Positions 6,341 through 64,000 of a stretch of DNA of 64,000 nt are shown piece by piece. Below the pieces are notes generated by a model. That model saw only the letters and a program-made list of their open reading frames with translations, was not told where the DNA came from and did no database searches. Within the stretch, counting starts at the first letter, position 1. Every line of letters starts with the position of its first letter. Both the position numbers and the translations under genes were made by a program. Source of the stretch: Escherichia coli (GTDB taxonomy: Bacteria > Pseudomonadota > Gammaproteobacteria > Enterobacterales > Enterobacteriaceae); NCBI RefSeq assembly GCF_017348835.2, contig NZ_CP072315.1. One strand, given 5' to 3'.

Positions 6341-7481
6341 AGGTAACAATCTCCACGACGGGCGCAACCTCAGCCAGGGCTTTAAGAAGCTGCGTGTCAA
6401 TACTTTCTGCGGGTGTCTCAGTACACACAAGAATACGGTCAAACTGCTGGTGGGCGACGTTATAGACAAAATTGGGGATGCCCAGCCCGTAGTTATCCGT
6501 AAAGGAAATGGCGGACTCAATGGCATAACCAACGGCGATAGGGGAGCGGGTGGTCGAACCATAAAGTGCCTGTGCTCCGGCAGCTTCGAGCCGTTCAGCA
6601 AGCAGGAACGGCTCCCAGACGAATTCCCCGGTCCCGAGAACCAGAATACGTTCCCCCTTGCGGACGGAGACCTCATGGCCGAGATCGGCCGCAGGTGCGA
6701 GCATCCCCAGTCGACCCCAGGACTGTTTTCCCAGGATGTCCCATTCTCCGCGTGAAGTTACGTTGACTTTCGGCATGTCCGGGACAGGTGCATCAGGTAA
6801 TGGGGTCCATCCCCACTGACCGCTTACAAGCGAAACCGAAGTGACGGGCAAGGATGTGCGCTCCGACAGGGCGTTGCTACTCCAGTCGGTAAGCGTAACG
6901 GCGATAACCTGTTCAATATGTTGAAGCTTGCCGGTATTACGCAGGGCAGAAAGCAGGTTAATAAAGGTATTACCGGTGGTTGCCTCGTCATCAATCAAAA
7001 CCAGCGTTCGTGCGTTGGTAACACGACGTCTTTTCTCTTCATCATCTGGCAGATAGATCAGATGATCGGTGGCGTGGCTGTGTTCTTCCTTGAACTCGCA
7101 AAGTAACGTGCCATCAACCGGGTGACGGGTAGAGGTCAGATAGACAGATTCACGATGCTGGTGGCGCACTTCATCAAACACACCGGCCCCTAGCCCAACG
7201 GCGGTTTCAGCCATACCGATAAAAAGTACGGGCCCTGTCAGCGTTGCGGGGAACTGGCTGGCAAGCTGTCTGTAGGCCTGCCGCATGACTGAGGGTGGCA
7301 CGGGAATGTGCCTGCCGAGTACTTTGCTGACAAACAGAAAGGCGCGTTTCGGGTTACGTCTTTCAGCGATATCAAACAGGTCATCGAGCGAAACATCACC
7401 CTGGTCGCGGGTTACCTGTATCGTACCGCATGAGAGGGTACGGCGATAAATCATATCTTCGAGGGTATCAGACATAAACAC
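6333..7481 (-). CDS. Phosphoribosyltransferase-domain protein
   Basis: 382-aa ORF with PRTase signature VLIDDEATTGNT; GTG start at 7481 or ATG at 7475. Confidence 0.7.
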   Translation of the reverse strand: MFMSDTLEDMIYRRTLSCGTIQVTRDQGDVSLDDLFDIAERRNPKRAFLFVSKVLGRHIPVPPSVMRQAYRQLASQFPATLTGPVLFIGMAETAVGLGAGVFDEVRHQHRESVYLTSTRHPVDGTLLCEFKEEHSHATDHLIYLPDDEEKRRRVTNARTLVLIDDEATTGNTFINLLSALRNTGKLQHIEQVIAVTLTDWSSNALSERTSLPVTSVSLVSGQWGWTPLPDAPVPDMPKVNVTSRGEWDILGKQSWGRLGMLAPAADLGHEVSVRKGERILVLGTGEFVWEPFLLAERLEAAGAQALYGSTTRSPIAVGYAIESAISFTDNYGLGIPNFVYNVAHQQFDRILVCTETPAESIDTQLLKALAEVAPVVEIVTYE

Positions 7482-7484
7482 GCC

Positions 7485-8543
7485 TTAATTCAGATGGTTA
7501 GAGAGTGATTCCGGGTAAACGATGACATCTGTGATGGATCTCACTGCAACCGGAGAAAAGGTATTTCTGGCGCTCTGGATCACCGCATCTTCAGACATCA
7601 GACCGAGCTTAAAGGCAGCAAACAACCCGGGAAGGTTCACCCCGCTGTGAAGGGTATAACCCACCCCGCCTGACGGACGCATGTTGGTTTCAAGCAGCAC
7701 CGGGTTGCCATTCACATCGTTTCGCGTCTGAACATTCACCAGCCCGTCGGCCTTCATAACCCGGGCGCAGTCACAAGCCAGTTCCCAGGCGCTTCCTTCG
7801 TTTACCAGATACTGGATAGCCCCTTCCTTACGGCGTCCCACGGCTGCGAGTATTTCGCCCTTATCCGCGAGGATATCGACGGAAAATTCCGGGCCTGGCA
7901 GGTACGGCATCAAAACAAGGGGTTTAAACGACTCAGAAGCCGATGCTGCTGCAATATACTGTTGCGGACTGACCAGACGATGTTCGGGATGATTAAAGAC
8001 GGCCATGGGCGAAGCACTGTCATCAAAGCGCCAGAATCCCATGCCATAGATACCCGTCACCGGCTTCACGCATACCGGGCTGTCCGAGAACGGCGGGGCC
8101 GCGAGGTGCGTCTTTAATTCTGCCAGCGTATTCACCCGCCAGGACGGTACGACCGGGAGCCCGTTTTGCTCCATAAACTGAGCAAAAGTAACTTTTTCGT
8201 CAGCCAGAGTTAACCAGTCGACGCCTGTTGCACCGGTAGTAAGGGTGGCTCCGGTCGATTCAATGGCTGAACGGTGTTCTTCAAACCACTGGCTGTTACG
8301 GCCAGTATGAATATGGTGGATGCCGTAGGTCTGAATGGTTTCCTGAATAAACTGAAGACGTTTTTGAGGATCTTCAGGTTCAGTCAAAGAATAATCGGCA
8401 ACGGAAAGAATTTCATGTCTTTCGTTACGGTGGGAGGCAAATACGGTAATAGCAAAATTATTTTTTTGTGCAAATGATTTTACCCCCTGAATAATATCTC
8501 GCTGGGAGGACAAACCTTCCATAAACCAAATTTTCTTGTTCAT
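7485..8543 (-). CDS. ATP-grasp family enzyme
   Basis: 352-aa ORF, first gene of the minus-strand module; ATP-grasp-like fold judged from sequence. Confidence 0.65.
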   Translation of the reverse strand: MNKKIWFMEGLSSQRDIIQGVKSFAQKNNFAITVFASHRNERHEILSVADYSLTEPEDPQKRLQFIQETIQTYGIHHIHTGRNSQWFEEHRSAIESTGATLTTGATGVDWLTLADEKVTFAQFMEQNGLPVVPSWRVNTLAELKTHLAAPPFSDSPVCVKPVTGIYGMGFWRFDDSASPMAVFNHPEHRLVSPQQYIAAASASESFKPLVLMPYLPGPEFSVDILADKGEILAAVGRRKEGAIQYLVNEGSAWELACDCARVMKADGLVNVQTRNDVNGNPVLLETNMRPSGGVGYTLHSGVNLPGLFAAFKLGLMSEDAVIQSARNTFSPVAVRSITDVIVYPESLSNHLN

Positions 8544-12193: not shown

Positions 12194-12772
12194 ATGAGTG
12201 TTTCTCTTTCCAAAGGCGGGAACGTCTCCCTGAGTAAAGCAGCTCCGTCAATGAAAAACGTCCTGGTGGGCCTTGGCTGGGATGCGCGTTCAACAGACGG
12301 TCAGGACTTTGACCTGGATGCTTCAGCATTCCTGCTGGCCGCAAATGGCAAAGTGCGCGGCGATTCAGATTTCATCTTCTATAACAACCTGACGTCATCT
12401 GACGGTTCCGTAACCCATACCGGTGATAACCGTACCGGTGAAGGTGATGGTGATGATGAATCGCTGAAAATTAAACTGGACGCCGTCCCGTCTGATGTTG
12501 ACAAGATCATCTTCGTTGTCACTATCCATGATGCTCAGGCTCGTCGCCAGAGCTTTGGTCAGGTATCCGGTGCGTTTATTCGCCTGGTCAATGACGATAA
12601 CCAGACTGAAGTCGCTCGCTACGATCTGACCGAAGATGCGTCCACTGAGACTGCCATGCTGTTCGGCGAGCTGTATCGCCACAATGGTGAGTGGAAATTC
12701 CGCGCAGTGGGCCAGGGTTATGCTGGTGGTCTGGCATCTGTATGTGCTCAGTACGGCATTAACGCGTCCTGA
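12194..12772 (+). CDS. terD: Tellurium resistance protein TerD
   Basis: 192-aa [16 protein letters not shown] motif. Confidence 0.9.
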
Positions 12773-12839
12773 TCGAAAAGTAACTTTTCACCCGGGGCTG
12801 TTAATGCAGCCCTCATTCAACTGTTTGCAGGAGCTAAAA

Positions 12840-13415
12840 ATGGCAGTTTCTCTCGTAAAAGGCGGCAACGTATCTCTGACCAAAGAAGCACCAACCATGA
12901 ATATCGCTATGGTTGGCCTCGGCTGGGATGCCCGTGTAACTGACGGTCAGGCTTTTGACCTGGACGCTTCCGTGTTCGCAGTAGGCGAAGACGGTAAAGT
13001 GCTGTCAGATGCGCATTTCATTTTCTTCAATAACAAAACCAGCCCTGATGGCGCGGTAGAGCACCAGGGCGACAACCGTACCGGTGAAGGCGACGGTGAC
13101 GATGAGCAGGTCAAAATCGATCTGACCAAAGTCTCAGCAGATATCAAAAAACTGGTGTTTGCCGTTACCATCTATGATGCAGAAGCGCGTAAACAAAACT
13201 TCGGCATGGTGAGCAACAGCTTCATGCGCGTTTACAACAACGACAACGGCACGGAAATTGCCCGTTTCGATCTGTCTGAAGATGCCTCAACCGAAACCGC
13301 TATGGTCTTCGGTGAACTGTATCGTCATGGCGCTGAGTGGAAGTTTAAAGCTGTCGGTCAGGGCTTTGCCGGTGGCCTGGCGGCTCTTGCCTCCCAGCAC
13401 GGCGTTAACATCTAA
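12840..13415 (+). CDS. terE: Tellurium resistance protein TerE
   Basis: ATG at 12840 after a GGAG ribosome-binding site gives 191 aa (MAVSLVKGG...), a close paralog of TerD. Confidence 0.85.
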
Positions 13416-13843: not shown

Positions 13844-15085
13844 GTGAATCTACAATCCGGACAAAACATACCGCTTCAGCAATCTGCGATCAGGCTGAAT
13901 CTTCAGTACCCTGCCAAATCCGGCTTTAAAGGCGAACCCGATACCTGCCTCTTCCTGCTTAATGCTCAGGGAAAGGTAACCGGCGATTCTGACTTTATCT
14001 TTTATAATAATCTGTCTTCTCCTGAAGGGGCAGTAAAGCTCGTTACCGGTTCTCAGCAGTCCAGCATTGAGATAGCACTGGATCGTGTTCCGGCGAACGT
14101 CAGTAAGATTGCGATCACCGTTGTCATTGATGGTGAAGATACTATCAGTGGGCTCAGTTTATTGAGCATTCAGGCTCCTGGTATCGCTGATTTTCAGGCT
14201 GAGACTCAGGGCCGCAGTGAGAAAGCAATCATCCTGGGTGAAGTATATCGGCACAATGGCGCCTGGAAGCTTCGTGCGCTCGGGCAGGGTTTCAACGGTG
14301 GTCTTGAGCCTCTGGCCATTAGCTTTGGCGTTGATGTCGCACAGCCAGCTCCGCAGCCAGCAAAGCCTGCTCGTATCAGTCTGGAAAAGAAACTTGAAAC
14401 CAGATCTCCGCGCCTCGTAAGCCTCGCTAAAAAAGCCTCGGTCAGTCTCACTAAAAATAAACTGGACACCCTTGAGGCAGCGGTTGCATTTGTACTTGAC
14501 GCATCCGGCTCAATGAGTGGCCAGTTCAGTAAGGGCAACGTTCAGTCTGTGCTGGACCGCATCGCCGTTCTTGCCGCCCAGTTCGACGACGACGGTGAAA
14601 TGGATGTCTGGGGATTTGGAGAGAAGCACAAGAAGTATCCAAACGTCACACTGGACAACCTGGACACATATATTCAGTCCATTCGCGGGTCTGGAAAGCG
14701 TTCAGCCTGGGAGAACCTGCCGGGACTTGGTGGGACAAACAATGAGCCCCCTGTGATGGAAGAAATTGTCGACTACTTTAAGGACTCGAAAATCCCGGTA
14801 TATGTTGTATTTATTACCGATGGCGGGATCAGCAAGACCCGGGCGATTAAAGATGCAATCCGGCGTTCTGCCAACTACCCCATCTTCTGGAAGTTTGTCG
14901 GCCTGGGTGGTTCAAGCTACGGTATCCTCAAAAATCTGGATGACTTTACTGACCGCCGGGTTGATAACACCCACTTCTTTGCCATGGATGATTTCGGTTC
15001 GATCAGCGATGAAAAGTTATATGATAATTTACTGGAAGAATTCAGACCGTGGATCGATGAAACAAAAAGGTTAGGCATCCTGTAA
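13844..15085 (+). CDS. terF: TerF-like protein (TerD domain fused to vWA domain)
   Basis: 413-aa ORF with GTG start after a CAGGAGAG ribosome-binding site; TerD-like N-half and vWA-like C-half (VLDASGSM). Confidence 0.75.
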
Positions 15086-34612: not shown

Positions 34613-34652
34613 GGGTAAACCAGAGGACGCTACTGCTTGCCAAAATCTTAAA

Positions 34653-34690
34653 GGGGAGCCCGCAGAATTCGGAAAAAATCGTACGCTAAG
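34653..34690 (+). repeat. Tn1721-type 38-bp terminal inverted repeat (IRR-like)
   Basis: GGGGAGCCCGCAGAATTCGGAAAAAATCGTACGCTAAG. Confidence 0.85.
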
Positions 34691-35360
34691 GTTTTCCGGG
34701 CATCCGTAAGGGCCGAAACTTCCCGTCTTCCAGTCTGCGGCTCTGCCGCCAGACGTAATCGCCGGTTAGGTTGATGTGCTCCCAGCCCAGCGGCGACAGG
34801 AATTGCAGCAGCTCGCCGTCCACCGGCTTGCCGGCCTCGACCAACCCCTGGGTGGCGCGTTCCAGGTACACCGTGTTCCACAGCACGATAGCCGCCGTCA
34901 CCAGGTTGAGGCCGCTGGCCCGGTAGCGCTGCTGCTCGAAGCTCCGATCCCTGATTTCCCCAAGGCGGTTGAAGAACACCGCCCTGGCCAGCGAGTTGCG
35001 CGCCTCACCTTTGTTCAGGCCGGCATGCACGCGGCGGCGCAGTTCAACACTTTGCAGCCAGTCCAGGATGAACAGCGTGCGCTCGATCCGGCCCAGCTCG
35101 CGCAGGGCCACGGCCAGTCCGTTCTGGCGCGGGTAGCTGCCGAGCTTGCGCAGCATCAGCGAGGCGGTGACGGTGCCCTGCTTGATCGAGCTGGCCAGGC
35201 GCAGGATGTCGTCCCAGTGGGCACGCACGTGCTTGATGTTCAGGGTGCCGCCGATCAGCGGGCGCAACGTCGGGTAGGCTTGCACGCCCTGCGGCACGTA
35301 CAGCTTGGTTTCGCCGAGGTCGCGGATGCGCGGCGCGAAGCGGAAGCCTAGCAGGTGCAT
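34686..35360 (-). pseudogene. tnpA: 3' fragment of a Tn21-subgroup (Tn1721-type) transposase gene
   Basis: 224-aa ORF ending inside the 38-bp inverted repeat with Tn3-family transposase C-terminal character; fragment continues to the Tn3 repeat junction near 35400. Confidence 0.7.
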
Positions 35361-35402
35361 CAGGGCAAAGACGTGATCGGTGAAGCCGGCCGTGTCGGTG
35401 TA

Positions 35403-35440
35403 GGGGTCTGACGCTCAGTGGAACGAAAACTCACGTTAAG
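35403..35440 (+). repeat. Tn3 38-bp terminal inverted repeat
   Basis: GGGGTCTGACGCTCAGTGGAACGAAAACTCACGTTAAG. Confidence 0.9.
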
Positions 35441-36738
35441 CAACGTTTTCTGCCTCTGACGCCTCTTTTAATGGTCTCAGATGTCCTTTGGTCACCAGTT
35501 CTGCCAGCGTGAAGGAATAATGGCCGAGCATATTGATATGTCCGTGGCAAAGCGGGGAGAGGCGTGCGATATCTTCATCATTCAGTGTTTCACCCTGCGC
35601 CCGGAGATGATCCAGGGCTGCCTGCATATAAATAGTGTTCCATAACACGACGGCGTTAGTGACCAGCCCCAGTGTGCCCAGTTGATCTTCCTGACCGTCG
35701 GTATATCGTTTTCTTATCTCACCTTTTTGACCGTGACAGATGGCTCTGGCAACGGCATGGCGACTTTCTCCCCGATTAAGCTGGGTCAGAATGCGCCGGC
35801 GGTAATCTTCATCATCAATATAATTAAGCAGATACAGCGTTTTGTTGATGCGCCCCACTTCAATGATTGCCTGAGTCAGTCCGGAAGGACGTTCACTTTT
35901 CAGCAATGAACGGACCAGCACTGAAACCTGTACTTTGCCCAGCTTCAGGGAGCCAGCGGTCCGGATCATTTCGTCCCACTGAAGGACTATTTTTCGGGGA
36001 TCTGATTGCCCTCTGGCAATATCATTCAGCACGCCATAGTCGGCATCATGGTCCATTCGCCAGAAAACCGAAGCACCGGCATCAGCCAGGCGTGGAGAAA
36101 ACTGGTATCCCAGCAGCCAGAAAAGGCCAAAGACAAGTTCGCTGGCACCTGCTGTATCGGTCATAATTTCGGTTGGATTCAGCCCGGTCTCCTGTTCCAG
36201 AAGACCTTCCAGCACAAAGATAGAGTCCCTCAGCGTCCCCGGTATAACGATGCCATGAAAGCCGGAATACTGATCGGACACAAAGTTGTACCAGGTGATC
36301 CCTCTGTTATTACCAAAGTATTTGCGGTTCGGTCCGGCATTGATTGTTCTGACTGGCGTAACAAAGCGCATTCCATCTGCAGATGCCACTTCTCCTCCAC
36401 CCCATATCTGTGCCAGTGGCAGCGTTGCCTGAAAATCAACCAGTCTGGCATTAGCGCTGGTGATAGTTTCAGCCCGCAGATAGTTCGCTTTTGTCCAGTT
36501 CAGCCGGTGTCGGGTCAGTGCAGGAACATTTGATCTGATCAGTGGTTCCAGACCGATATTGCAGGCTTCAGCCATCAGCACGGCGCTGATGCTGACGGGC
36601 AGATCATCAACTCTGGCACTGGCTTCACTAGCATGGAAAAACTCATCAGCAAATCCGGTATGGGCGTTAATTTCGAGCAGCAACTCCGTTAAATCCACCG
36701 GAGGGAGTAGATCACTGATCATTTTGCTCAGTCGTTTC
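35436..36738 (-). pseudogene. tnpA: Tn3 transposase gene, 3' portion, truncated by IS26
   Basis: About 430 C-terminal residues of Tn3-type TnpA (…RLSKMISDLLPPVDLTELLLEINAHTGF… to …HLRPLKEASEAENVA); the track ORF's start codon lies inside IS26. Confidence 0.85.
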
Positions 36739-37557
36739 GGCACTGTTGCAAATAGTCGGTGGTGATAAACTTATCATCCCCTTTTGCTGATGGAGCTGCA
36801 CATGAACCCATTCAAAGGCCGGCATTTTCAGCGTGACATCATTCTGTGGGCCGTACGCTGGTACTGCAAATACGGCATCAGTTACCGTGAGCTGCAGGAG
36901 ATGCTGGCTGAACGCGGAGTGAATGTCGATCACTCCACGATTTACCGCTGGGTTCAGCGTTATGCGCCTGAAATGGAAAAACGGCTGCGCTGGTACTGGC
37001 GTAACCCTTCCGATCTTTGCCCGTGGCACATGGATGAAACCTACGTGAAGGTCAATGGCCGCTGGGCGTATCTGTACCGGGCCGTCGACAGCCGGGGCCG
37101 CACTGTCGATTTTTATCTCTCCTCCCGTCGTAACAGCAAAGCTGCATACCGGTTTCTGGGTAAAATCCTCAACAACGTGAAGAAGTGGCAGATCCCACGA
37201 TCCTCAACACGGATAAAGCGCCCGCCTATGGTCGCGCGCTTGCTCTGCTCAAACGCGAAGGCCGGTGCCCGTCTGACGTTGAACACCGACAGATTAAGTA
37301 CCGGAACAACGTGATTGAATGCGATCATGGCAAACTGAAACGGATAATCAACGCCACGCTGGGATTTAAATCCATGAAGACGGCTTACGCCACCATCAAA
37401 GGTATTGAGGTGATGCGTGCACTACGCAAAGGCCAGGCCTCAGCATTTTATTATGGTGATCCCCTGGGCGAAATGCGCCTGGTAAGCAGAGTTTTTGAAA
37501 TGTAAGGCCTTTGAATAAGACAAAAGGCTGCCTCATCGCTAACTTTGCAACAGTGCC
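36739..37557 (+). mobile_element. IS26 copy 1 (819 bp, transposase frameshifted)
   Basis: 14-bp ends GGCACTGTTGCAAA / TTTGCAACAGTGCC; 1 bp shorter than the other copies from a change near 37198 (CCCACGATCCTCAACACGG versus CCCACGATTCATCAACACGG in other copies); no 8-bp target duplication. Confidence 0.9.
36802..37505 (+). pseudogene. tnp26: IS26 transposase gene, frameshifted
   Basis: Reading frame splits into track ORFs 36784..37314 and 37185..37505; protein diverges after KKWQIPR. Confidence 0.85.
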
Positions 37558-37680
37558 GCCCCAGCAGCATCTCCAGCTGTGAACGCTGTTCGGCTGACGG
37601 TATCAGTGCCAGTTTGTTCCACAGGCGCAACGTCGCCTTTTCCCTTACCTCTGAAATCAACCGGGTCAGCGTAGTGGCTC
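37558..37680 (-). pseudogene. tnpA: Internal fragment of Tn3 transposase gene
   Basis: Encodes …ISEVREKATLRLWNKLALIPSAEQRSQLEMLLG, an internal TnpA segment not contiguous with the 3' fragment on the other side of IS26; right boundary approximate. Confidence 0.6.
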
Positions 37681-37707
37681 CGGGGAGAATAATAGTCTAT
37701 CCCGGCA

Positions 37708-48971: not shown

Positions 48972-49009
48972 GGGGGAACCGCAGAATTCGGAAAAAATCG
49001 TACGCTAAG
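48972..49009 (+). repeat. Tn1721-type 38-bp terminal inverted repeat (IRL-like)
   Basis: GGGGGAACCGCAGAATTCGGAAAAAATCGTACGCTAAG. Confidence 0.85.
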
Positions 49010-52161: not shown

Positions 52162-52899
52162 ATGCGCAGGACGAAGCCAGTAGCCGCGCCGATGGTGGCG
52201 CGGGTCTATCTGCGCGTCAGCACCGACGCGCAGGACTTGGAACGCCAAGAGGCGATCACTACGGCCGCGAAGGCCGCCGGCTACTACGTCGCCGGCATCT
52301 ACCGTGAGAAGGCATCCGGCGCACGCGCCGACCGGCCTGAGCTGCTGCGCATGATCGGCGACCTACAGCCCGGCGAGGTGGTCATTGCCGAGAAGATCGA
52401 CCGCATCAGCCGCCTACCTTTGCCCGAGGCCGAGCGCCTGGTGGCCTCGATACAGGCCAAAGGCGCAAGCCTGGCCGTCCCTGGCGTGGTCGATCTATCC
52501 GACCTGGCGGCCGAGGCCCAGGGCGTCGCCAAGATCGTGCTGGAAGCCGTGCAGATCATGCTTTTTCGCCTGGCCTTGCAGATGGCCCGCGACGACTACG
52601 AGGACAGGCGCGAACGCCAGCGCCAAGGCATTGAGTTGGCCCGCCAGGCCGGGCGGTACAAGGGCCGCCGTGCTGATCCGAAGCGCCGCGCCCAAGTTGT
52701 CGCGCTGCGCAAGTCCGGCTACAGCATCAACAAGACCGCCGAGCTGGCCGGGTACAGTGCGGCCCAGGTGAAACGGATATGGGCCGAGGTCAGCCAGGCC
52801 GAAGCGAAGCAGCACGGCGCGTTCGTGGAGGACGCATTGACGGAAGCCGATGCCCTGGCCGCTGTCGGCCAGGATGAGCGCCAGGAGGAAAGGGCATGA
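52162..52899 (+). CDS. Serine recombinase (resolvase/invertase family)
   Basis: 245-aa ORF with N-terminal catalytic-domain character (YLRVSTDAQDLERQ) and a C-terminal HTH; alternative start near 52192. Confidence 0.7.
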   Translation: MRRTKPVAAPMVARVYLRVSTDAQDLERQEAITTAAKAAGYYVAGIYREKASGARADRPELLRMIGDLQPGEVVIAEKIDRISRLPLPEAERLVASIQAKGASLAVPGVVDLSDLAAEAQGVAKIVLEAVQIMLFRLALQMARDDYEDRRERQRQGIELARQAGRYKGRRADPKRRAQVVALRKSGYSINKTAELAGYSAAQVKRIWAEVSQAEAKQHGAFVEDALTEADALAAVGQDERQEERA

Positions 52900-57503: not shown

Positions 57504-57802
57504 CGGGCACTGGCTGGCAATGTCTAGCAACGGCAGGCATTTCGGCTGAGGGTAAAAGAACTTTCCGCTAAGCGATAGACTGTATGTAAACACAGTATTG
57601 CAAGGACGCGGAACATGCCTCATGTGGCGGCCAGGACGGCCAGCCGGGATCGGGATACTGGTCGTTACCAGAGCCACCGACCCGAGCAAACCCTTCTCTA
57701 TCAGATCGTTGACGAGTATTACCCGGCATTCGCTGCGCTTATGGCAGAGCAGGGAAAGGAATTGCCGGGCTATGTGCAACGGGAATTTGAAGAATTTCTC
57801 CA
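57498..57802 (+). mobile_element. ISCR2 5' fragment (305-bp direct repeat of 53214-53518)
   Basis: Identical by eye to the start of the complete ISCR2, including the first 63 codons of its transposase. Confidence 0.85.
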
Positions 57803-58969
57803 AAGCCCGCGACGCAGCGCCGGCAGGCAGAGCAAGTAGAGGGCAGCGCCTGCAATCCATGCCCACCCGTTCCACGTTGTTATAGAAGCCGCATAGATCG
57901 CCGTGAAGAGGAGGGGTCCGACGATCGAGGTCAGGCTGGTGAGCGCCGCCAGTGAGCCTTGCAGCTGCCCCTGACGTTCCTCATCCACCTGCCTGGACAA
58001 CATTGCTTGCAGCGCCGGCATTCCGATGCCACCCGAAGCAAGCAGGACCATGATCGGGAACGCCATCCATCCCCGTGTCGCGAAGGCAAGCAGGATGTAG
58101 CCTGTGCCGTCGGCAATCATTCCGAGCATGAGTGCCCGCCTTTCGCCGAGCCGGGCGGCTACAGGGCCGGTGATCATTGCCTGGGCGAGTGAATGCAGAA
58201 TGCCAAATGCGGCAAGCGAAATGCCGATCGTGGTCGCGTCCCAGTGAAAGCGATCCTCGCCGAAAATGACCCAAAGCGCGGCCGGCACCTGTCCGACAAG
58301 TTGCATGATGAAGAAGACCGCCATCAGGGCGGCGACGACGGTCATGCCCCGGGCCCACCGGAACGAAGCGAGCGGGTTGAGAGCCTCCCGGCGTAACGGC
58401 CGGCGTTCGCCTTTGTGCGACTCCGGCAAAAGGAAACAGCCCGTCAGGAAATTGAGGCCGTTCAAGGCTGCCGCGGCGAAGAACGGAGCGTGGGGGGAGA
58501 AACCGCCCATCAGCCCACCGAGCACAGGTCCCGCGACCATCCCGAACCCGAAACAGGCGCTCATGAAGCCGAAGTGCCGCGCGCGCTCATCGCCATCAGT
58601 GATATCGGCAATATAAGCGCCGGCTACCGCCCCAGTCGCCCCGGTGATGCCGGCCACGATCCGCCCGATATAGAGAACCCAAAGGAAAGGCGTCGTCGCC
58701 ATGATGGCGTAGTCGACAGCAGCGCCGGCCAGCGAGACGAGCAAGACCGGCCGCCGCCCGAAACGATCCGACAGCGCGCCCAGCACAGGTGCGCAGGCAA
58801 ATTGCATCAACGCATACAGCGCCAGCAGAATGCCATAGTGGGCGGTGACGTCGTTCGAGTGAACCAGATCGCGCAGGAGGCCCGGCAGCACCGGCATAAT
58901 CAGGCCGATGCCGACAGCGTCGAGCGCGACAGTGCTCAGAATTACGATCAGGGGTCTGTTGGGTTTCAC
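57770..58969 (-). CDS. tetA(A): Tetracycline efflux protein TetA(A), 3' end replaced by ISCR2-derived sequence
   Basis: 399 aa from a GTG start (V)KPNRPLIVILSTVALDAVG…; the last 33 nt lie inside the ISCR2 fragment, giving a …RRGLWRNSSNSRCT C-terminus. Confidence 0.9.
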   Translation of the reverse strand: MKPNRPLIVILSTVALDAVGIGLIMPVLPGLLRDLVHSNDVTAHYGILLALYALMQFACAPVLGALSDRFGRRPVLLVSLAGAAVDYAIMATTPFLWVLYIGRIVAGITGATGAVAGAYIADITDGDERARHFGFMSACFGFGMVAGPVLGGLMGGFSPHAPFFAAAALNGLNFLTGCFLLPESHKGERRPLRREALNPLASFRWARGMTVVAALMAVFFIMQLVGQVPAALWVIFGEDRFHWDATTIGISLAAFGILHSLAQAMITGPVAARLGERRALMLGMIADGTGYILLAFATRGWMAFPIMVLLASGGIGMPALQAMLSRQVDEERQGQLQGSLAALTSLTSIVGPLLFTAIYAASITTWNGWAWIAGAALYLLCLPALRRGLWRNSSNSRCT

Positions 58970-59017
58970 GTCTGGCCTCCGGACCAGCCTCCGCTGGTCC
59001 GATTGAACGCGCGGATT

Positions 59018-59066
59018 CTTTATCACTGATAAGTTGGTGGACATATTATGTTTATCAGTGATAAAG
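59018..59066. promoter_or_regulatory. tet operator region (two palindromic operators) between tetA and tetR
   Basis: TTTATCACTGATAA and TTTATCAGTGATAAA palindromes in the divergent intergenic region. Confidence 0.8.
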
Positions 59067-59074
59067 TGTCAAGC

Positions 59075-59725
59075 ATGACAAAGTTGCAGCCGAATACAGT
59101 GATCCGTGCCGCCCTGGACCTGTTGAACGAGGTCGGCGTAGACGGTCTGACGACACGCAAACTGGCGGAACGGTTGGGGGTTCAGCAGCCGGCGCTTTAC
59201 TGGCACTTCAGGAACAAGCGGGCGCTGCTCGACGCACTGGCCGAAGCCATGCTGGCGGAGAATCATACGCATTCGGTGCCGAGAGCCGACGACGACTGGC
59301 GCTCATTTCTGATCGGGAATGCCCGCAGCTTCAGGCAGGCGCTGCTCGCCTACCGCGATGGCGCGCGCATCCATGCCGGCACGCGACCGGGCGCACCGCA
59401 GATGGAAACGGCCGACGCGCAGCTTCGCTTCCTCTGCGAGGCGGGTTTTTCGGCCGGGGACGCCGTCAATGCGCTGATGACAATCAGCTACTTCACTGTT
59501 GGGGCCGTGCTTGAGGAGCAGGCCGGCGACAGCGATGCCGGCGAGCGCGGCGGCACCGTTGAACAGGCTCCGCTCTCGCCGCTGTTGCGGGCCGCGATAG
59601 ACGCCTTCGACGAAGCCGATCCGGACGCAGCGTTCGAGCAGGGACTCGCGGTGATTGTCGATGGATTGGCGAAAAGGAGGCTCGTTGTCAGGAACGTTGA
59701 AGGACCGAGAAAGGGTGACGATTGA
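59075..59725 (+). CDS. tetR(A): Tetracycline repressor TetR(A)
   Basis: 216 aa from MTKLQPNTVIRAALDLLNEVGVDGLTTRKLAERLGVQQPALYWHF. Confidence 0.95.
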   Translation: MTKLQPNTVIRAALDLLNEVGVDGLTTRKLAERLGVQQPALYWHFRNKRALLDALAEAMLAENHTHSVPRADDDWRSFLIGNARSFRQALLAYRDGARIHAGTRPGAPQMETADAQLRFLCEAGFSAGDAVNALMTISYFTVGAVLEEQAGDSDAGERGGTVEQAPLSPLLRAAIDAFDEADPDAAFEQGLAVIVDGLAKRRLVVRNVEGPRKGDD

Positions 59726-60198
59726 TCAGGACCGCTGCCGGAGCGCAACCCACTCACTACAGCAGAGCCATGTAGACAACATCCCCTCCCCCTTTCCACC
59801 GCGTCAGACGCCCGTAGCAGCCCGCTACGGGCTTTTTCATGCCCTGCCCTAGCGTCCAAGCCTCACGGCCGCGCTCGGCCTCTCTGGCGGCCTTCTGGCG
59901 CTCCTGCTGCGGCGTCCGCTCGTGGGCCGTGGCGCGGGTCCGCGCGCCGGCCTCGTGCGCCTGGCGCTCGCGGGCGAGGTCCAGGGCGGCCGTCTTCACG
60001 TTCTGCCTTGCGCAGATGAGATAGATCTAGCGTGGACTCAAGGCTCTCGCGAATGGCTCGCGTTGGAAACTTTCATTGACACTTGAGGGGCACCGCAGGG
60101 AAATTCTCGTCCTTGCGAGAACCGGCTATGTCGTGCTGCGCATCGAGCCTGCGCCCTTGGCTTGTCTCGCCCCTCTCCGCGTCGCTACGGGGCTTCCA

Positions 60199-60236
60199 GG
60201 GGTCGTTTGCGGGAAGGGGCGGAATCCTACGCTAAG
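60199..60236 (+). repeat. Tn3-family 38-bp inverted repeat, Tn5393-like, downstream of strB
   Basis: GGGGTCGTTTGCGGGAAGGGGCGGAATCCTACGCTAAG, 68 bp from the strB stop. Confidence 0.7.
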
Positions 60237-60304
60237 GCTTTGGCCAGCGATATTCTCCGGTGAGATTGATGTGTTCCCAGGGGATAGGAGAAGTCGCTTG
60301 ATAT

Positions 60305-61141
60305 CTAGTATGACGTCTGTCGCACCTGCTTGATCGCGGCCGCGATAGCTAGATCGCGTTGCTCCTCTTCTCCATCCGCGTTCCAAGCTGCGGAAAGGCA
60401 CCCATAAGCGTACGCCTGGTCGAGCAGGCGACGCGGATCGACGTCCAGCGCACGAGAGAATGCGTCCGCCATCTGTGCAATGCGTCTAGGATCGAGACAA
60501 AGGTCGTCTCTGTCAGCCGGATCGTAGAACATATTGGCGGCGCCAAAGCCCACTTCACCGACCAGACCGACGGGATCTATCACCAGCCAGCCGCGACTGG
60601 AGAACATGATGTTTTCATGATGCAGATCGCCATGTAGCCCACGCAGTTCCGAGGCATTGCTCATCATTTGATCGGCTATAATCGCCGCGTGGACGTAGTC
60701 AGTTTGACAACCTGCGTTTTGATCATCGCGCGCCCGCTGAAACAAAGCTGCAAAGCGATCCCGGATCGGGAGAAGGGCAGAAGGCAGGGGTTCCTCAGAT
60801 GCGGCATACAGCTTCGCCATTAGTTCCGCTGCAATTTCGGTCGCCTGGTAGTCGCCGTGCTCGGCAACGATGTGAGAGAGCATTCGCTCCCCGGCATATT
60901 CGAGCAACATCAGATTGTTCTCACGACCGAGCAACCGGACTGCTCCCCTCCCATTGCGCCATACCAGATAGTCGGCCCCGCGCAGTTCATCAGCAATGTC
61001 TTCTATAGGTTTCAATCCCTTGACGATTGCAGGAGTCCCGTCTGGCAATGAAACTTTCCAAACGAGGCTGGAAAAGGTGTCCGCAATGAGAACAGGTTGC
61101 GAAACGTGCCAATGAGCAGGAAAAACAGGCGGCATGAACAT
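60305..61141 (-). CDS. strB: Aminoglycoside 6-phosphotransferase APH(6)-Id (StrB)
   Basis: 278 aa from MFMPPVFPAHWHVSQPVLIADTFSSLVWKV. Confidence 0.95.
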   Translation of the reverse strand: MFMPPVFPAHWHVSQPVLIADTFSSLVWKVSLPDGTPAIVKGLKPIEDIADELRGADYLVWRNGRGAVRLLGRENNLMLLEYAGERMLSHIVAEHGDYQATEIAAELMAKLYAASEEPLPSALLPIRDRFAALFQRARDDQNAGCQTDYVHAAIIADQMMSNASELRGLHGDLHHENIMFSSRGWLVIDPVGLVGEVGFGAANMFYDPADRDDLCLDPRRIAQMADAFSRALDVDPRRLLDQAYAYGCLSAAWNADGEEEQRDLAIAAAIKQVRQTSY

Positions 61142-61944
61142 CAACCCCAAGTCAGAGGGTCCAATCGCAGATAGAAGGCAAGGCGTTCGCGGTCGGGGGC
61201 TTCGATCCCCAATACATTGAATAGGACAGCGAAGGCGCGCTCTGCTTCATCTGGCGCTGCCCAGTTCTCTTCGGCGTTAGCAATCATGAGTGCCAAATCG
61301 GCATAGCGATCTGCTGTTCCGAGCCGCCCAAGGTCGATCAGACCCGTGCATTGAAGAGTTTTAGGGTCCACCATGAAGTTCGGCATGCAGGGATCACCAT
61401 GGCAAACAACCATATCGGTGCGCTCTTGGTCGAGCCGCACCGGTAGCTCTCGTTCGACACGAGCCAAAAGATCGAGCTGCGGCGTACTCTTGTCCTCGTC
61501 CGGTAAGAAGTCGGGATTGACGGCATTGCGGGACACCACATCAACGGCGCGTCCGAACATTCGCGACAGCCTGCGCTCAAACGGACATTGATCAACCGAT
61601 AGGCTGTGAACAGCGCCAAGTTGCTGCCCCATTGACGGCCACGCTTTGAGCAAATCCGCTCCAGACAGATCAGCCGCCGGTACTCCCGGAATTGCCGTTA
61701 TCACCAAGCATGCACCCTCCTGTTCCTCCTGCCAGTTGATGACCTCGGGGCAAGCCACACCTCGACCTTTGAGCCAAATGAGGCGGTCACGCTCTCCAGC
61801 GAGCTCACCGCGGCGGGAAGCAGGTGCGATTTTCGCGAAGGCATGCCCGTCACCACGTCGAAAAACAAAATCACCAGATTCTCCGCCTCTGACAGGCAAC
61901 CAGTCAGAATGCGATTCACCAAAAAAAATATTAGTTCGATTCAA
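61141..61944 (-). CDS. strA: Aminoglycoside 3''-phosphotransferase APH(3'')-Ib (StrA)
   Basis: 267 aa MNRTNIFFGESHSDWLPVRGGESGDFVFRRGDGHAFAKIAPASRRGELAGERDRL. Confidence 0.95.
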   Translation of the reverse strand: MNRTNIFFGESHSDWLPVRGGESGDFVFRRGDGHAFAKIAPASRRGELAGERDRLIWLKGRGVACPEVINWQEEQEGACLVITAIPGVPAADLSGADLLKAWPSMGQQLGAVHSLSVDQCPFERRLSRMFGRAVDVVSRNAVNPDFLPDEDKSTPQLDLLARVERELPVRLDQERTDMVVCHGDPCMPNFMVDPKTLQCTGLIDLGRLGTADRYADLALMIANAEENWAAPDEAERAFAVLFNVLGIEAPDRERLAFYLRLDPLTWG

Positions 61945-62004
61945 TGGAGGTTCCTTCAGTTTTCTGATGAAGCGCGAATATAGAGAAATATCCCGAATGT
62001 GCAG

Positions 62005-62820
62005 TTAACGAATTCTTGCGGTTTCTTTTAGCGCCGCCAATACCGCCAGCCCGTCGCGCAAGGGGCGCGGCTCGTGTGTGCGGATGAAGTCAGCTCCACC
62101 TGCGGCGGCGGCAAGCTCTGCAGCGAGTGTCGCGGCCCCGACATCCCCCGGACCACGGCCTGTGAGCGCGCGCAGAAAGGATTTGCGCGAAACAGACAGA
62201 AGCACCGGCAAATCGAAGCGCAGCCGCAATTCATCGAACCGCGCCAGCACCGAGAGCGAGGTTTCGGGAGCAGCCCCCAGAAAAAACCCCATGCCGGGAT
62301 CAAGGACAAGGCGGTTGCGTTTGATACCGGCACCCGTCAGCGCCGCGATGCGCGCGTCAAAGAACGCCGCAATGTGATCCATGATGTCGCCAGCGGGTGC
62401 CTCGCGCCGATCTGCCTGCCCGTCTTGCACCGAATGCATAACGACGAGTTTGGCAGATGATTTCGCCAATTGCGGATAGAACGCAGCGTCTGGAAAACCG
62501 CGAATATCATTGAGATAGGCCACACCACGCGACAAGGCATAGGCTTGCGTCGCGGGTTGATAACTGTCGAGCGAGACGGGAATGCCATCTGCCTTGAGCG
62601 CGTCCAGCACCGGCGCGATACGCTCGATTTCTGTGTCGGACGAAACAGGCGCGGCGTCGGGGTTGCTGGATGCCGGACCGAGGTCGATCACATCTGCCCC
62701 CTCGGCCATCAACTTACGCGCCTGCGCAATGGCTGCGTCTGGCGCCAGATACCGGCCTCCATCGGAGAAACTGTCCGAGGTTATGTTGACGATGCCGAAA
62801 ATGATGAGCGATTTATTCAT
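62005..62820 (-). CDS. sul2: Sulfonamide-resistant dihydropteroate synthase Sul2
   Basis: 271 aa MNKSLIIFGIVNITSDSFSDGGRYLAPDAAIAQARKLMAEGADVIDLGPASSNPDA. Confidence 0.95.
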   Translation of the reverse strand: MNKSLIIFGIVNITSDSFSDGGRYLAPDAAIAQARKLMAEGADVIDLGPASSNPDAAPVSSDTEIERIAPVLDALKADGIPVSLDSYQPATQAYALSRGVAYLNDIRGFPDAAFYPQLAKSSAKLVVMHSVQDGQADRREAPAGDIMDHIAAFFDARIAALTGAGIKRNRLVLDPGMGFFLGAAPETSLSVLARFDELRLRFDLPVLLSVSRKSFLRALTGRGPGDVGAATLAAELAAAAGGADFIRTHEPRPLRDGLAVLAALKETARIR

Positions 62821-63127
62821 GGGGGCTTCTATAATAATAATAATCGAGCATGAGTCTCATACGGATGCTCGGGTCGAAAGGGAATCCCCAGGCGAGTAAC
62901 CTGTTTGCGGTGATCCATTAGCTGCAGGAGCAGAATAGCATACATCTGGAAGCAAAGCCAGGAAAGCGGCCTATGGAGCTGTGCGGCAGCGCTCAGTAGG
63001 CAATTTTTCAAAATATTGTTAAGCCTTTTCTGAGCATGGTATTTTTCATGGTATTACCAATTAGCAGGAAAATAAGCCATTGAATATAAAAGATAAAAAT
63101 GTCTTGTTTACAATAGAGTGGGGGGGG

Positions 63128-63979
63128 TCAGCCTGCCGCCTTGGGCCGGGTGATGTCGTACTTGCCCGCCGCGAACTCGGTTACCGTCCAGCCCAGCGCG
63201 ACCAGCTCCGGCAACGCCTCGCGCACCCGCTGGCGGCGCTTGCGCATGGTCGAACCACTGGCCTCTGACGGCCAGACATAGCCGCACAAGGTATCTATGG
63301 AAGCCTTGCCGGTTTTGCCGGGGTCGATCCAGCCACACAGCCGCTGGTGCAGCAGGCGGGCGGTTTCGCTGTCCAGCGCCCGCACCTCGTCCATGCTGAT
63401 GCGCACATGCTGGCCGCCACCCATGACGGCCTGCGCGATCAAGGGGTTCAGGGCCACGTACAGGCGCCCGTCCGCCTCGTCGCTGGCGTACTCCGACAGC
63501 AGCCGAAACCCCTGCCGCTTGCGGCCATTCTGGGCGATGATGGATACCTTCCAAAGGCGCTCGATGCAGTCCTGTATGTGCTTGAGCGCCCCACCACTAT
63601 CGACCTCTGCCCCGATTTCCTTTGCCAGCGCCCGATAGCTACCTTTGACCACCATGGCATCAGCGGTGACGGCCTCCCACTTGGGTTCCAGGAACAGCCG
63701 GAGCTGCCGTCCGCCTTCGGTCTTGGGTTCCGGGCCAAGCACTAGGCCATTAGGCCCAGCCATGGCCACCAGCCCTTGCAGGATGCGCAGATCATCAGCG
63801 CCCAGCGGCTCCGGGCCGCTGAACTCGATCCGCTTGCCGTCGCCGTAGTCATACGTCACGTCCAGCTTGCTGCGCTTGCGCTCGCCCCGCTTGAGGGCAC
63901 GGAACAGGCCGGGGGCCAGACAGTGCGCCGGGTCGTGCCGGACGTGGCTGAGGCTGTGCTTGTTCTTAGGCTTCACCAC
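63128..63979 (-). CDS. repC: RSF1010-type (IncQ) replication protein RepC
   Basis: 283 aa MVKPKNKHSLSHVRHDPAHCLAPGLFRALKRGERKRSKLDVTYDYGDGKRIEF…. Confidence 0.9.
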   Translation of the reverse strand: MVKPKNKHSLSHVRHDPAHCLAPGLFRALKRGERKRSKLDVTYDYGDGKRIEFSGPEPLGADDLRILQGLVAMAGPNGLVLGPEPKTEGGRQLRLFLEPKWEAVTADAMVVKGSYRALAKEIGAEVDSGGALKHIQDCIERLWKVSIIAQNGRKRQGFRLLSEYASDEADGRLYVALNPLIAQAVMGGGQHVRISMDEVRALDSETARLLHQRLCGWIDPGKTGKASIDTLCGYVWPSEASGSTMRKRRQRVREALPELVALGWTVTEFAAGKYDITRPKAAG

Positions 63980-64000
63980 GGGGCACCCCCTTGCTCTTGC
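63976..64000 (-). pseudogene. repA: 3' end of RSF1010-type repA (runs off the window edge)
   Basis: Reading frame overlapping the repC start, as in the RSF1010 repA-repC arrangement; only about 8 codons visible. Confidence 0.5.

What the first reader, a model, noticed from the sequence alone, without database searches (positions are those of the whole stretch)
59726..60304. Unassigned GC-rich segment joining tetR(A) to a Tn5393-like repeat next to strB
The 470 bp between the tetR stop and the 38-bp Tn3-family repeat at 60199 has only an 80-aa antisense ORF of biased composition and no recognisable gene. It marks the junction of the tet module with the RSF1010-derived repA-repC-sul2-strA-strB segment.
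Basis: inference. Interest (0 to 1): 0.2.

Follow-up and report, generated by a model that had tools for sequence, protein, structure and literature searches.

The report
IncP plasmid scar joining tetR to strB
The "unassigned" GC-rich DNA between tetR(A) and strB is an ordinary, very common non-coding scar: the tail of the tetracycline-resistance module as found in IncP-1alpha (RK2/RP4-type) plasmids, with one leftover replication-origin repeat, cut off by the end of the streptomycin transposon Tn5393.

Summary
473 bp (59726-60198, 66% GC) separate the tetR(A) stop from a Tn5393 terminal inverted repeat that starts at 60199. An 80-aa antisense ORF lies at 59757-59999.

The segment is not unassigned. 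Window 57798-60198 (tetA-tetR plus all 473 bp) is gap-free collinear with IncP-1alpha plasmid pBS228 at 99.6%, and with other records at 99.9%. Tn1721 shares only the first ~298 bp: its internal repeat IRRI abuts at 60023/60024. The last 174 bp are therefore IncP-type, not Tn1721.

- 60073-60198 is conserved IncP-1 backbone, also present in R751.
- It carries the solitary oriV iteron i1 (60077-60091), the only iteron in the window. No trfA is present.
- A tetR terminator hairpin lies at 59810-59832.
- The 80-aa ORF (annotated "transposase" or "relaxase" in public records) has no domain and no diverged homologue. It is removed by a 155-bp deletion in a diverged copy, so it is probably not a gene.

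Longer versions of the same junction exist (+81 bp in p11k; up to iteron 5 in pDTC28). This suggests nested deletions anchored at the repeat end.

The whole 579-bp segment occurs in at least 1099 PLSDB plasmids, and its oriV/Tn5393 junction in 401 of 5426 complete E. coli genomes. It is already known and of low interest.

The parts
59075..59725 (+). tetR(A), for context; its stop codon defines the left edge of the finding
   Evidence: ORF list. Annotated tetR(A), 651 bp, at the equivalent place in L001, L002 and L005.
59726..60072 (.). Non-coding tail of the tet(A) determinant (347 bp, 67.7% GC). It is shared with IncP-1alpha plasmids and, up to 60023, with Tn1721. It is absent from IncP-1beta R751.
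   Evidence: Collinear with pBS228. Tn1721 IRRI abuts at 60023/60024. No R751 homology beyond the iteron. GC content.
59810..59837 (+). Intrinsic-terminator-like hairpin (9-bp stem with 7 G-C pairs, 5-nt loop) followed by TTTTT, 85 nt after the tetR stop. Likely the tetR terminator.
   Evidence: Terminator scan. RNA fold -21.5 kcal/mol, z = -3.8, 0 of 200 shuffles fold as well.
59757..59999 (-). 80-aa ORF (GTG start), identical to WP_000844627.1, labelled 'transposase' or 'relaxase' in public records. Probably not a gene.
   Evidence: No Pfam or NCBIfam match. Only near-identical copies or junction chimeras in the 5.8-billion and 1.84-billion protein searches. A 155-bp out-of-frame deletion removes most of it in a diverged copy. 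It is antisense to the tetR terminator.
60023..60024 (.). Point at which the internal repeat IRRI of Tn1721 (the end of Tn1722) abuts this sequence in Tn1721. No repeat is present here in the window.
   Evidence: L006 reads ...gatgagatag|GGGAGCCCGCAGAATTCGG..., whereas the window reads ...gatgagatagATCTAGCG.... Megablast matches to many records stop at query position 299.
60073..60198 (.). 126-bp relic of the conserved IncP-1 backbone on the outer (trfA-side) edge of oriV
   Evidence: pBS228 12821-12947 aligns with R751 14797-14965 in blocks mostly 78-95% identical.
60077..60091 (+). Orphan TrfA-binding iteron TGACACTTGAGGGGC, corresponding to the solitary iteron i1 of RK2-type oriV
   Evidence: Pattern scan finds one copy in the window and ten in pBS228 (1 + 3 + 5 + one inverted); this copy maps to the single one at pBS228 12929-12943. 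The i1/i10 nomenclature and its copy-number role are from PMC6961859.
60199..60279 (+). Right terminal inverted repeat (IRR) of Tn5393, outer end at 60199. It is solitary in the window.
   Evidence: Aligned with both repeats of Tn5393a in pPSR1. There the repeat begins GGGG and is flanked by the 5-bp duplication TGAAT. Single copy in the window. The length of 81 bp is from established knowledge, not measured here.
60280..60304 (.). Tn5393-internal spacer between the repeat and the strB stop codon
   Evidence: Identical to pPSR1 Tn5393a over this stretch.
60305..61141 (-). strB / aph(6)-Id, for context
   Evidence: ORF list. Annotated APH(6)-Id in L001 and L005.
57798..57803 (.). Left end of the 2.4-kb IncP-type tet fragment. 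The junction with a 5' fragment of the ISCR2 transposase gene lies in a shared CTCCAA.
   Evidence: Three-way comparison of the window, pBS228 and pSF149-3.

Best explanation
The segment is a non-coding recombination scar made of three pieces of known mobile DNA.

(1) 59726-60072 is the 3' flank of the tet(A) determinant as it sits in IncP-1alpha plasmids (RP1/RK2/RP4/pBS228). It carries the tetR terminator.

(2) 60073-60198 is 126 bp of IncP-1 backbone from the outer edge of oriV. It includes the solitary TrfA-binding iteron i1, which is inert here because the window has no trfA and no other iteron.

(3) 60199-60304 is the right terminal inverted repeat of Tn5393 plus 25 bp leading to strB.

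Shown: the identity and boundaries of each piece, and the fact that the tet fragment is not bounded by Tn1721 ends.

Inferred history: Tn5393 entered the tetR-oriV region of an IncP-1alpha-like sequence. Deletions anchored exactly at the repeat terminus then shortened the oriV remnant, from pDTC28 to p11k to the form in this window. The far end of the 2.4-kb tet fragment was joined to ISCR2 by illegitimate recombination at CTCCAA.

The only parts likely to act today are the tetR terminator (in cis) and, only if an IncP-1 plasmid is also present, weak TrfA binding by i1.
For: - Window 57798-60199 matches pBS228 15222-12821 over 2402 bp with 9 mismatches and 0 gaps. There are 2-3 mismatches to IncP plasmid pLBC82 and to the Tn21-linked copy in L004.
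- In L004 the same sequence continues into the RK2 oriV iterons, AT-rich and GC-rich regions. That arrangement is published as deltaTn1721 / IncP-1alpha oriV / Tn21 (PMC3817090).
- In Tn1721 (L006), IRRI abuts at 60023/60024.
- R751 shows the same 1+3+5+1 layout and backbone homology across 60073-60198.
- There is no TrfA-coding sequence in the window.
- The outer end of the Tn5393 repeat was verified against the intact Tn5393a in pPSR1, which has a 5-bp target duplication.
- Terminator evidence.
- The ORF has no family match, no diverged homologue, and is deleted in a diverged copy.
- Three junction variants share the same repeat terminus. The IncP sequence ends at pBS228 ~12461-12464 in pDTC28, at 12740 in p11k, and at 12821/12822 in the window.
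- The left junction lies in a CTCCAA microhomology, and pSF149-3 shows the arrangement without the tet fragment.
- Prevalence: at least 1099 PLSDB records cover >=80% of the 579-bp segment. 401 of 5426 complete E. coli genomes cover >=80% of the junction-spanning probe 60060-60340.
Against: - The order of events is inferred. The reciprocal Tn5393 IRL junction (repeat plus 5-bp duplication plus the continuing oriV sequence) was not found in PLSDB for two of the three junction positions. It was not searched for the pDTC28 position.
- The three repeat/oriV junctions could be independent Tn5393 insertions into a known insertion hot spot rather than nested deletions.
- The ORF frame has a gene-like GC pattern by codon position (GC3 85%, GC2 56%) and a weak AAGG upstream of its GTG start. 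An ancient gene remnant or a small protein is therefore not formally excluded.
- Terminator function and TrfA binding were not tested experimentally.
Confidence: 0.85

Rival explanations
1. The whole spacer is simply a truncated piece of Tn1721, the usual label for tet(A) contexts.
For: 59726-60023 is identical to Tn1721 copies; 2 mismatches over 57798-60024. Published tables routinely label such tet(A) contexts as truncated Tn1721 (PMC7407071).
Against: In Tn1721 the IRRI repeat follows directly after 60023/60024. The window instead continues for 174 bp that are collinear with IncP-1alpha plasmids and include conserved oriV-flank DNA and iteron i1. No Tn1721 repeat lies at either end of the tet fragment; the only Tn1721-type repeats in the window are at 34653 and 48972.
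Confidence: 0.04
2. The 80-aa antisense ORF (WP_000844627.1) is a real gene: a small protein, or the remnant of a relaxase or transposase as public annotation says.
For: It is annotated as a CDS in RefSeq and GenBank records. Its GC profile by codon position is gene-like (0.75/0.56/0.85). The frame is intact in thousands of copies.
Against: - No Pfam or NCBIfam domain at E <= 1.
- Every hit in the two very large protein searches is a near-identical copy, a frameshifted copy or a junction chimera, for example fusions to TEM or to a Tn3-family TnpA.
- A copy with ~87% identity has a 155-bp deletion, not a multiple of 3, that removes most of the ORF.
- The ORF's C-terminal third is the antisense of the tetR terminator hairpin.
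- In Tn1721 only 24 bp of native sequence remain upstream of its start.
- Intactness across copies reflects recent clonal spread of one DNA, not purifying selection.
Confidence: 0.07
3. The three different oriV/Tn5393-repeat junctions (pDTC28, p11k, this window) arose from three independent Tn5393 insertions in the same orientation, not from nested deletions next to one insertion.
For: The oriV-trfA region of IncP-1 plasmids is a documented hot spot for Tn3-family insertions (cited in PMC3817090). Each junction sits exactly at the repeat terminus, as a fresh insertion would. Next to the +81 junction, the oriV sequence CTGCAAACGCGCC resembles the repeat terminus, a feature reported for Tn3 targets (the sequence is; the Tn3 target preference is from my own knowledge).
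Against: It needs three insertions in one orientation within 360 bp, each followed by loss of the tnpA side. No reciprocal junction was found for the two positions searched. One insertion plus two repeat-anchored deletions is more economical.
Confidence: 0.3
4. The relic is functional: iteron i1, or the segment as a whole, acts as an origin component or as a TrfA-titrating or handcuffing incompatibility determinant that is selected for.
For: The iteron is a perfect consensus copy. In RK2, i1 is a negative copy-number element; deleting it raises copy number about 2-fold (PMC6961859).
Against: The window has only one iteron, no trfA, no DnaA boxes and no AT-rich region. Other contexts cut the segment at query positions 121, 173 or 299, removing the iteron, and still carry tet(A). 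The diverged copy has a mutated iteron, TGATACTTGTGGGGC.
Confidence: 0.06

Closest known systems
tetA(A)-tetR(A)-oriV region of IncP-1alpha plasmids (RP1/RK2/RP4; compared here with pBS228, NC_008357)
   Same: 2402 bp collinear without gaps at 99.6%: tetA, tetR, the 347-bp tail, iteron i1 and its flank. The 80-aa ORF is annotated at the same place in pBS228.
   Different: In the window the match stops 122 bp beyond i1, at the Tn5393 repeat, so iterons 2-10, the DnaA boxes and the AT-rich and GC-rich regions are missing. trfA is absent. The last 25 nt of tetA are replaced by ISCR2-derived sequence.
deltaTn1721 / IncP-1alpha oriV / Tn21 resistance locus of pO26-CRL125 and pO111-CRL115 (Venturini et al. 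2013, PMC3817090); the L004 type here
   Same: The same tet fragment with the same tetR-to-oriV junction as pBS228. The published paper also regards the oriV as non-functional without trfA.
   Different: That locus keeps most of oriV and ends at a Tn21 repeat. The window keeps only 126 bp of oriV flank and ends at a Tn5393 repeat.
Tn1721 (X61367; a full copy is in L006)
   Same: tetA-tetR and the first ~298 bp after tetR are identical (2 mismatches in 2227 bp).
   Different: Tn1721 has its IRRI repeat at 60023/60024 followed by Tn1722 tnpA. The window has neither.
Tn5393 / RSF1010 strA-strB end (Tn5393a in pPSR1; IncQ1 plasmid p11k; small plasmids pSF149-3 and the S. sonnei plasmid pSO87_sm005, L005)
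   Same: The terminal repeat and its distance to strB are as in Tn5393a. repC-sul2-strA-strB is 99.8% identical to IncQ1 p11k. The identical 579-bp junction is in the 8.4-kb S. sonnei plasmid L005 and in IncC plasmid pF18S011.
   Different: There is no tnpA, tnpR or second repeat, so the fragment cannot move as Tn5393. p11k has 81 bp more oriV DNA at the junction. pSF149-3 has ISCR2 DNA instead of the tet fragment next to the repeat.

Membership tests
IncP-1 oriV (functional replication origin) | TrfA-binding 17-bp iterons matching TGACA-NN-TGAGGGGC | tested here: met
   One perfect copy at 60077-60091, positionally equal to the solitary iteron i1 of pBS228.
IncP-1 oriV (functional replication origin) | Cluster of five iterons (5-9) plus DnaA boxes and AT-rich and GC-rich regions | tested here: not met
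   The whole 64-kb window has a single iteron at <=1 mismatch. Collinearity with pBS228 stops at 12821, before iterons 2-9.
IncP-1 oriV (functional replication origin) | The cognate initiator gene trfA is available | tested here: not met
   tblastn of pBS228 TrfA against the window gives no hit at E <= 1.
Tn5393 (Tn3-family transposon) | Terminal inverted repeat starting GGGG, identical or near-identical to the Tn5393 repeat, at the native distance from strB | tested here: met
   60199 onward aligns with IRR and IRL of Tn5393a in pPSR1. The stretch down to strB is identical apart from 4 substitutions within the repeat.
Tn5393 (Tn3-family transposon) | A second repeat in inverted orientation, with tnpA and tnpR between the repeats | tested here: not met
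   Only one copy of the repeat in the window at <=3 mismatches. sul2 and repC follow strA instead of tnpR and tnpA.
Tn5393 (Tn3-family transposon) | 5-bp target-site duplication flanking the element | not testable with these tools
   Only one end is present. The flank here is TTCCA. Reciprocal junctions were not found in PLSDB.
Tn1721 | tet module bounded by the 38-bp repeats (IRRI next to the tetR flank, IRRII beyond pecM and delta-tnpA) | tested here: not met
   No Tn1721 repeat at 60024 or near 57798. Such repeats occur only at 34653 and 48972. The sequence continues 174 bp past the IRRI position.
Protein-coding gene (the 'transposase' / 'relaxase' WP_000844627.1) | Recognisable domain or family membership | tested here: not met
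   No Pfam or NCBIfam match at E <= 1.
Protein-coding gene (the 'transposase' / 'relaxase' WP_000844627.1) | Diverged homologues that keep the reading frame | tested here: not met
   Only near-identical copies or chimeras were found. The one diverged DNA copy has a 155-bp out-of-frame deletion.
Rho-independent terminator (of tetR) | G+C-rich hairpin followed by a U-run, downstream of and on the same strand as the gene | tested here: met
   59810-59832 followed by TTTTT. Folding z-score -3.8. Termination itself was not measured.
Rfam RNA families | Match to any curated covariance model | tested here: not met
   0 matches at E <= 1 in 59500-60500 on either strand.

The most novel reading that the evidence does not exclude
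The orphan iteron i1, kept as a perfect consensus copy in many of the plasmids that carry this segment (at least 1099 PLSDB records cover >=80% of the 579 bp), still binds TrfA. On multicopy or co-resident replicons it would then act in trans as a handcuffing or titration site that lowers the copy number or stability of incoming IncP-1 plasmids, giving weak, unrecognised incompatibility between this resistance cluster and IncP-1 plasmids. Alternatively, the 80-aa ORF could encode a genuine small protein.
Probability: 0.06. Interest if true: 0.35.

Novelty: already known. Interest (0 to 1): 0.1.

Why it matters
It matters mainly for annotation and for reconstructing how resistance clusters were assembled.

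- The widespread sul2-strA-strB-tetR-tetA(A)(-floR) cluster carries a tet fragment that came from an IncP-1alpha-type context, not from Tn1721 proper.
- The 126-bp oriV relic and its exact cut at the Tn5393 repeat are a convenient lineage marker. Three nested junction variants can be told apart.
- The 'transposase' and 'relaxase' labels propagated for the 80-aa ORF are unsupported.

No new biology is implied.

Tried and rejected
- Pfam and NCBIfam scans of the 80-aa ORF, of the 123-aa ORF overlapping tetR, and of the 85- and 91-aa ORFs that cross the junction gave nothing real.
- Two very large protein searches for relatives of the 80-aa ORF returned only clones and junction chimeras. The longer 'homologues' (438, 338 and 192 aa) are fusions to unrelated N-termini, including TEM beta-lactamase and a Tn3-family TnpA.
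- An Rfam scan found nothing.
- Two synthetic chimeric queries for the reciprocal Tn5393 IRL/oriV junction, with duplications TTCCA and AGAAA, found no record covering both halves.
- Accession look-ups for RP4 (BN000925) and RSF1010 (NC_001740) failed because the records are not in the collection. pBS228 and IncQ1 p11k were used instead.
- A. pittii plasmid pAP2044-2 was fetched in the hope of a complete Tn5393 but holds only the strAB end. pPSR1 served instead.
- Several literature searches for an explicit published description of this exact tetR/strB junction found only papers on the related Tn21-linked arrangement and generic 'truncated Tn1721' labels.

Full report
**Observation.**
tetR(A) ends at 59725 and strB (minus strand) ends at 60305. 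Between them, the sequence GGGGTCGTTTGCGGGAAGGGGCGGAATCCTACGCTAAGG starts at 60199. It is unique in the window and expected 0 times by chance. The spacer 59726-60198 is 473 bp at 66.4% GC, against 51.2% for the window. The 80-aa antisense ORF is at 59757-59999. Other mechanical ORFs of 50-91 aa also overlap the region. The four scanned (the 80-aa ORF, the 123-aa ORF overlapping tetR, and the 85- and 91-aa junction-crossing ORFs) have no real Pfam or NCBIfam match.

**Identity of the 473 bp.**
At least 1099 records cover >=80% of the query, and the matches show recurrent breakpoints at query positions 121, 173, 299 and 474.

A pairwise comparison shows that window 57798-60199 is collinear with IncP-1alpha plasmid pBS228 (15222-12821) over 2402 bp, with 9 mismatches and no gaps. 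There are only 2-3 mismatches to IncP plasmid pLBC82 and to a Tn21-linked copy in L004.

In L004 the same sequence runs straight on into the RK2-type oriV, with its iterons, AT-rich region and GC-rich region. This deltaTn1721 / IncP-1alpha oriV / Tn21 arrangement is published, and the authors note that the oriV/tet junction is identical to that of pBS228 (PMC3817090).

**Relation to Tn1721.**
A full Tn1721 (L006: MCP gene, tnpR, tnpA, tetR, tetA, EamA-family transporter gene) shares the window sequence only up to 60023/60024. At that point its internal repeat GGGGAGCCCGCAGAATTCGGAAAAAATCGTACGCTAAG begins. The window continues for 174 more bp that Tn1721 lacks. The tet fragment here is therefore not a Tn1721 fragment in the strict sense. 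It keeps the IncP-type sequence that the Tn1722 end interrupts in Tn1721.

**The IncP relic.**
A scan for TGACA-NN-TGAGGGGC finds ten iterons in pBS228: a solitary one, clusters of three and five, and an inverted one on the klcA side. It finds exactly one in the 64-kb window, at 60077-60091, and this maps to the solitary copy.

R751 (IncP-1beta) has the same layout. It aligns with pBS228 12776-12947 in blocks mostly 78-95% identical. Window ~60073-60198 is therefore conserved IncP-1 backbone, whereas 59726-60072 has no R751 counterpart and belongs to the tet insert.

In RK2 nomenclature the solitary copy is i1. TrfA dimers act negatively through all iterons, and deleting i1 raises copy number about 2-fold (PMC6961859). 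The window has no trfA, so here i1 is an orphan.

**The Tn5393 end.**
In the intact Tn5393a of pPSR1 the arms align over 94 nt (1381-1474 and 6757-6850). The repeat begins with GGGG and is flanked by the 5-bp duplication TGAAT. By the same register the repeat in the window starts at 60199, and the flanking pentamer is TTCCA.

The repeat-to-strB stretch is as in Tn5393a. The block 60198-64000 is 99.8% identical to repA'-repC-sul2-strA-strB of IncQ1 plasmid p11k. No second repeat exists in the window.

**The ORF.**
Public records annotate 59757-59999 as 'transposase' (WP_000844627.1) or 'relaxase'. Several results argue against a real gene:

- There is no domain match.
- A word-indexed search of 5.8 billion proteins and a full HMMER pass over 1.84 billion representatives returned only near-identical copies, frameshifted versions and junction chimeras. 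One chimera is a TEM fusion; another is a Tn3-family TnpA N-terminus fusion.
- A diverged copy of the spacer (~87% identity, pMyNCGM429) has a 155-bp out-of-frame deletion that removes most of the ORF and the terminator. It also carries a mutated iteron.
- The ORF's C-terminal part is the antisense of a strong hairpin at 59810-59832 followed by TTTTT, the likely tetR terminator (z = -3.8).
- Rfam finds nothing in the region.

The frame's GC3 of 85% leaves a small chance of an ancient gene remnant.

**How the junction arose (inferred).**
pSF149-3 is a 6.2-kb sul2-strAB plasmid in which the Tn5393 repeat abuts a 5' fragment of the ISCR2 transposase gene. The 8.4-kb S. sonnei plasmid pSO87_sm005 and this window carry the 2.4-kb tet fragment in place of the last 216 bp of that ISCR2 fragment. 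The left junction lies in a shared CTCCAA at 57798-57803.

At the right junction three variants share the same repeat terminus but keep different amounts of oriV:

- pDTC28 (an IncP plasmid) keeps oriV DNA up to iteron 5, at pBS228 ~12461-12464.
- p11k and 60 other PLSDB records keep 81 bp more than the window, ending ...CAGAAA|GGGG.
- The window ends ...CTTCCA|GGGG.

A single Tn5393 insertion in the tetR-oriV region, followed by deletions anchored at the repeat end, is the most economical account. Transposase-mediated adjacent deletion is known for Tn3-family elements (from my own knowledge). Independent insertions into this known hot spot remain possible. Reciprocal IRL junctions were not found for the two positions searched.

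**Prevalence and verdict.**
The identical 579 bp occur in IncC (pF18S011), IncQ1-related, small ColE-like and large multiresistance plasmids of Salmonella, Shigella, E. coli and Klebsiella. 401 of 5426 complete E. coli genomes cover at least 80% of the junction-spanning probe 60060-60340.

Every component is a known element, and the tet/oriV linkage is published in a sister context. The finding is real but ordinary. Its value is an improved annotation: an IncP-1alpha tet tail, a relic of oriV iteron i1, the Tn5393 IRR, and an unsupported CDS label.

Noticed in passing
L014/L016 (p11k, NZ_CP025338.2) 8235-8315; also CP090283.1 and several complete E. coli genomes: A variant of the same junction keeps 81 more bp of IncP oriV DNA before the Tn5393 repeat (...GCAAACGCGCCAGAAA|GGGGTCG). 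61 PLSDB records cover at least 80% of a probe for this junction, one of which (pDTC28) is a different, longer arrangement. The oriV sequence just before this junction (CTGCAAACGCGCC) resembles the inverted repeat terminus (CCGCAAACGACCCC).
   Followed up: partly
L015 (pDTC28, KU238092.1) 7511-8343: An IncP plasmid from an uncultured source carries tetA-tetR, iterons 1-4 and part of iteron 5, directly joined to the Tn5393 repeat, then strB, a truncated strA and IS6100. This is the longest member of the apparent nested-deletion series.
   Followed up: partly
window 57770-57803: The last ~28 nt of the tetA(A) reading frame, including its stop codon, are not IncP/Tn1721 sequence. They are the antisense of an ISCR2 transposase 5' fragment, joined at a CTCCAA microhomology. 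The resulting allele has the same length and is scored as a 100% tet(A) reference match by AMRFinder in other records.
   Followed up: partly
L002 (pEcNDM1, NC_023909.1) 4299-4544: A ~245-bp miniature element with Tn3-family-like terminal repeats (GGGGTCGATAGAGAAAACGGGAAATAAAGCACGGTAAG ... GGGGTCGTCTCAGAATTCGGAAAATAAAGCACGCTAGCG in inverted orientation) sits at exactly the position where the Tn1721 IRRI abuts the tetR tail. The sequence beyond it is neither Tn1721 nor IncP.
   Followed up: no
window 34653-34690 and 48972-49009: A perfect Tn1721 38-bp repeat and a second repeat with 3 mismatches (GGGGGAACCGCAGAATTCGG...) lie elsewhere in the window, both on the + strand, far from the tet(A) fragment. 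The window also has pieces matching pBS228's Tn3 tnpA (35401-36746; 37558-37694), its other Tn3-family tnpA (34652-35403, 92%) and its recombinase/nuclease genes (52205-52640, 82%).
   Followed up: no
L009 (pMyNCGM429, LC744471.1) 3975-4480: A diverged (~87%) version of the tetR tail plus iteron relic exists beside a tet(A) gene flanked by IS6-family (IS26-like) copies. It has 155-bp and 16-bp deletions and a mutated iteron, which implies an older, separately evolving lineage of the same IncP-type tet fragment.
   Followed up: partly
L004 (pF1267-2) 6475-6710: The Tn21-linked oriV copy lacks the iterons between the first of the cluster of three and the second of the cluster of five. This is consistent with recombination between directly repeated iterons. 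A related 160-bp iteron deletion is reported in PMC3817090.
   Followed up: no
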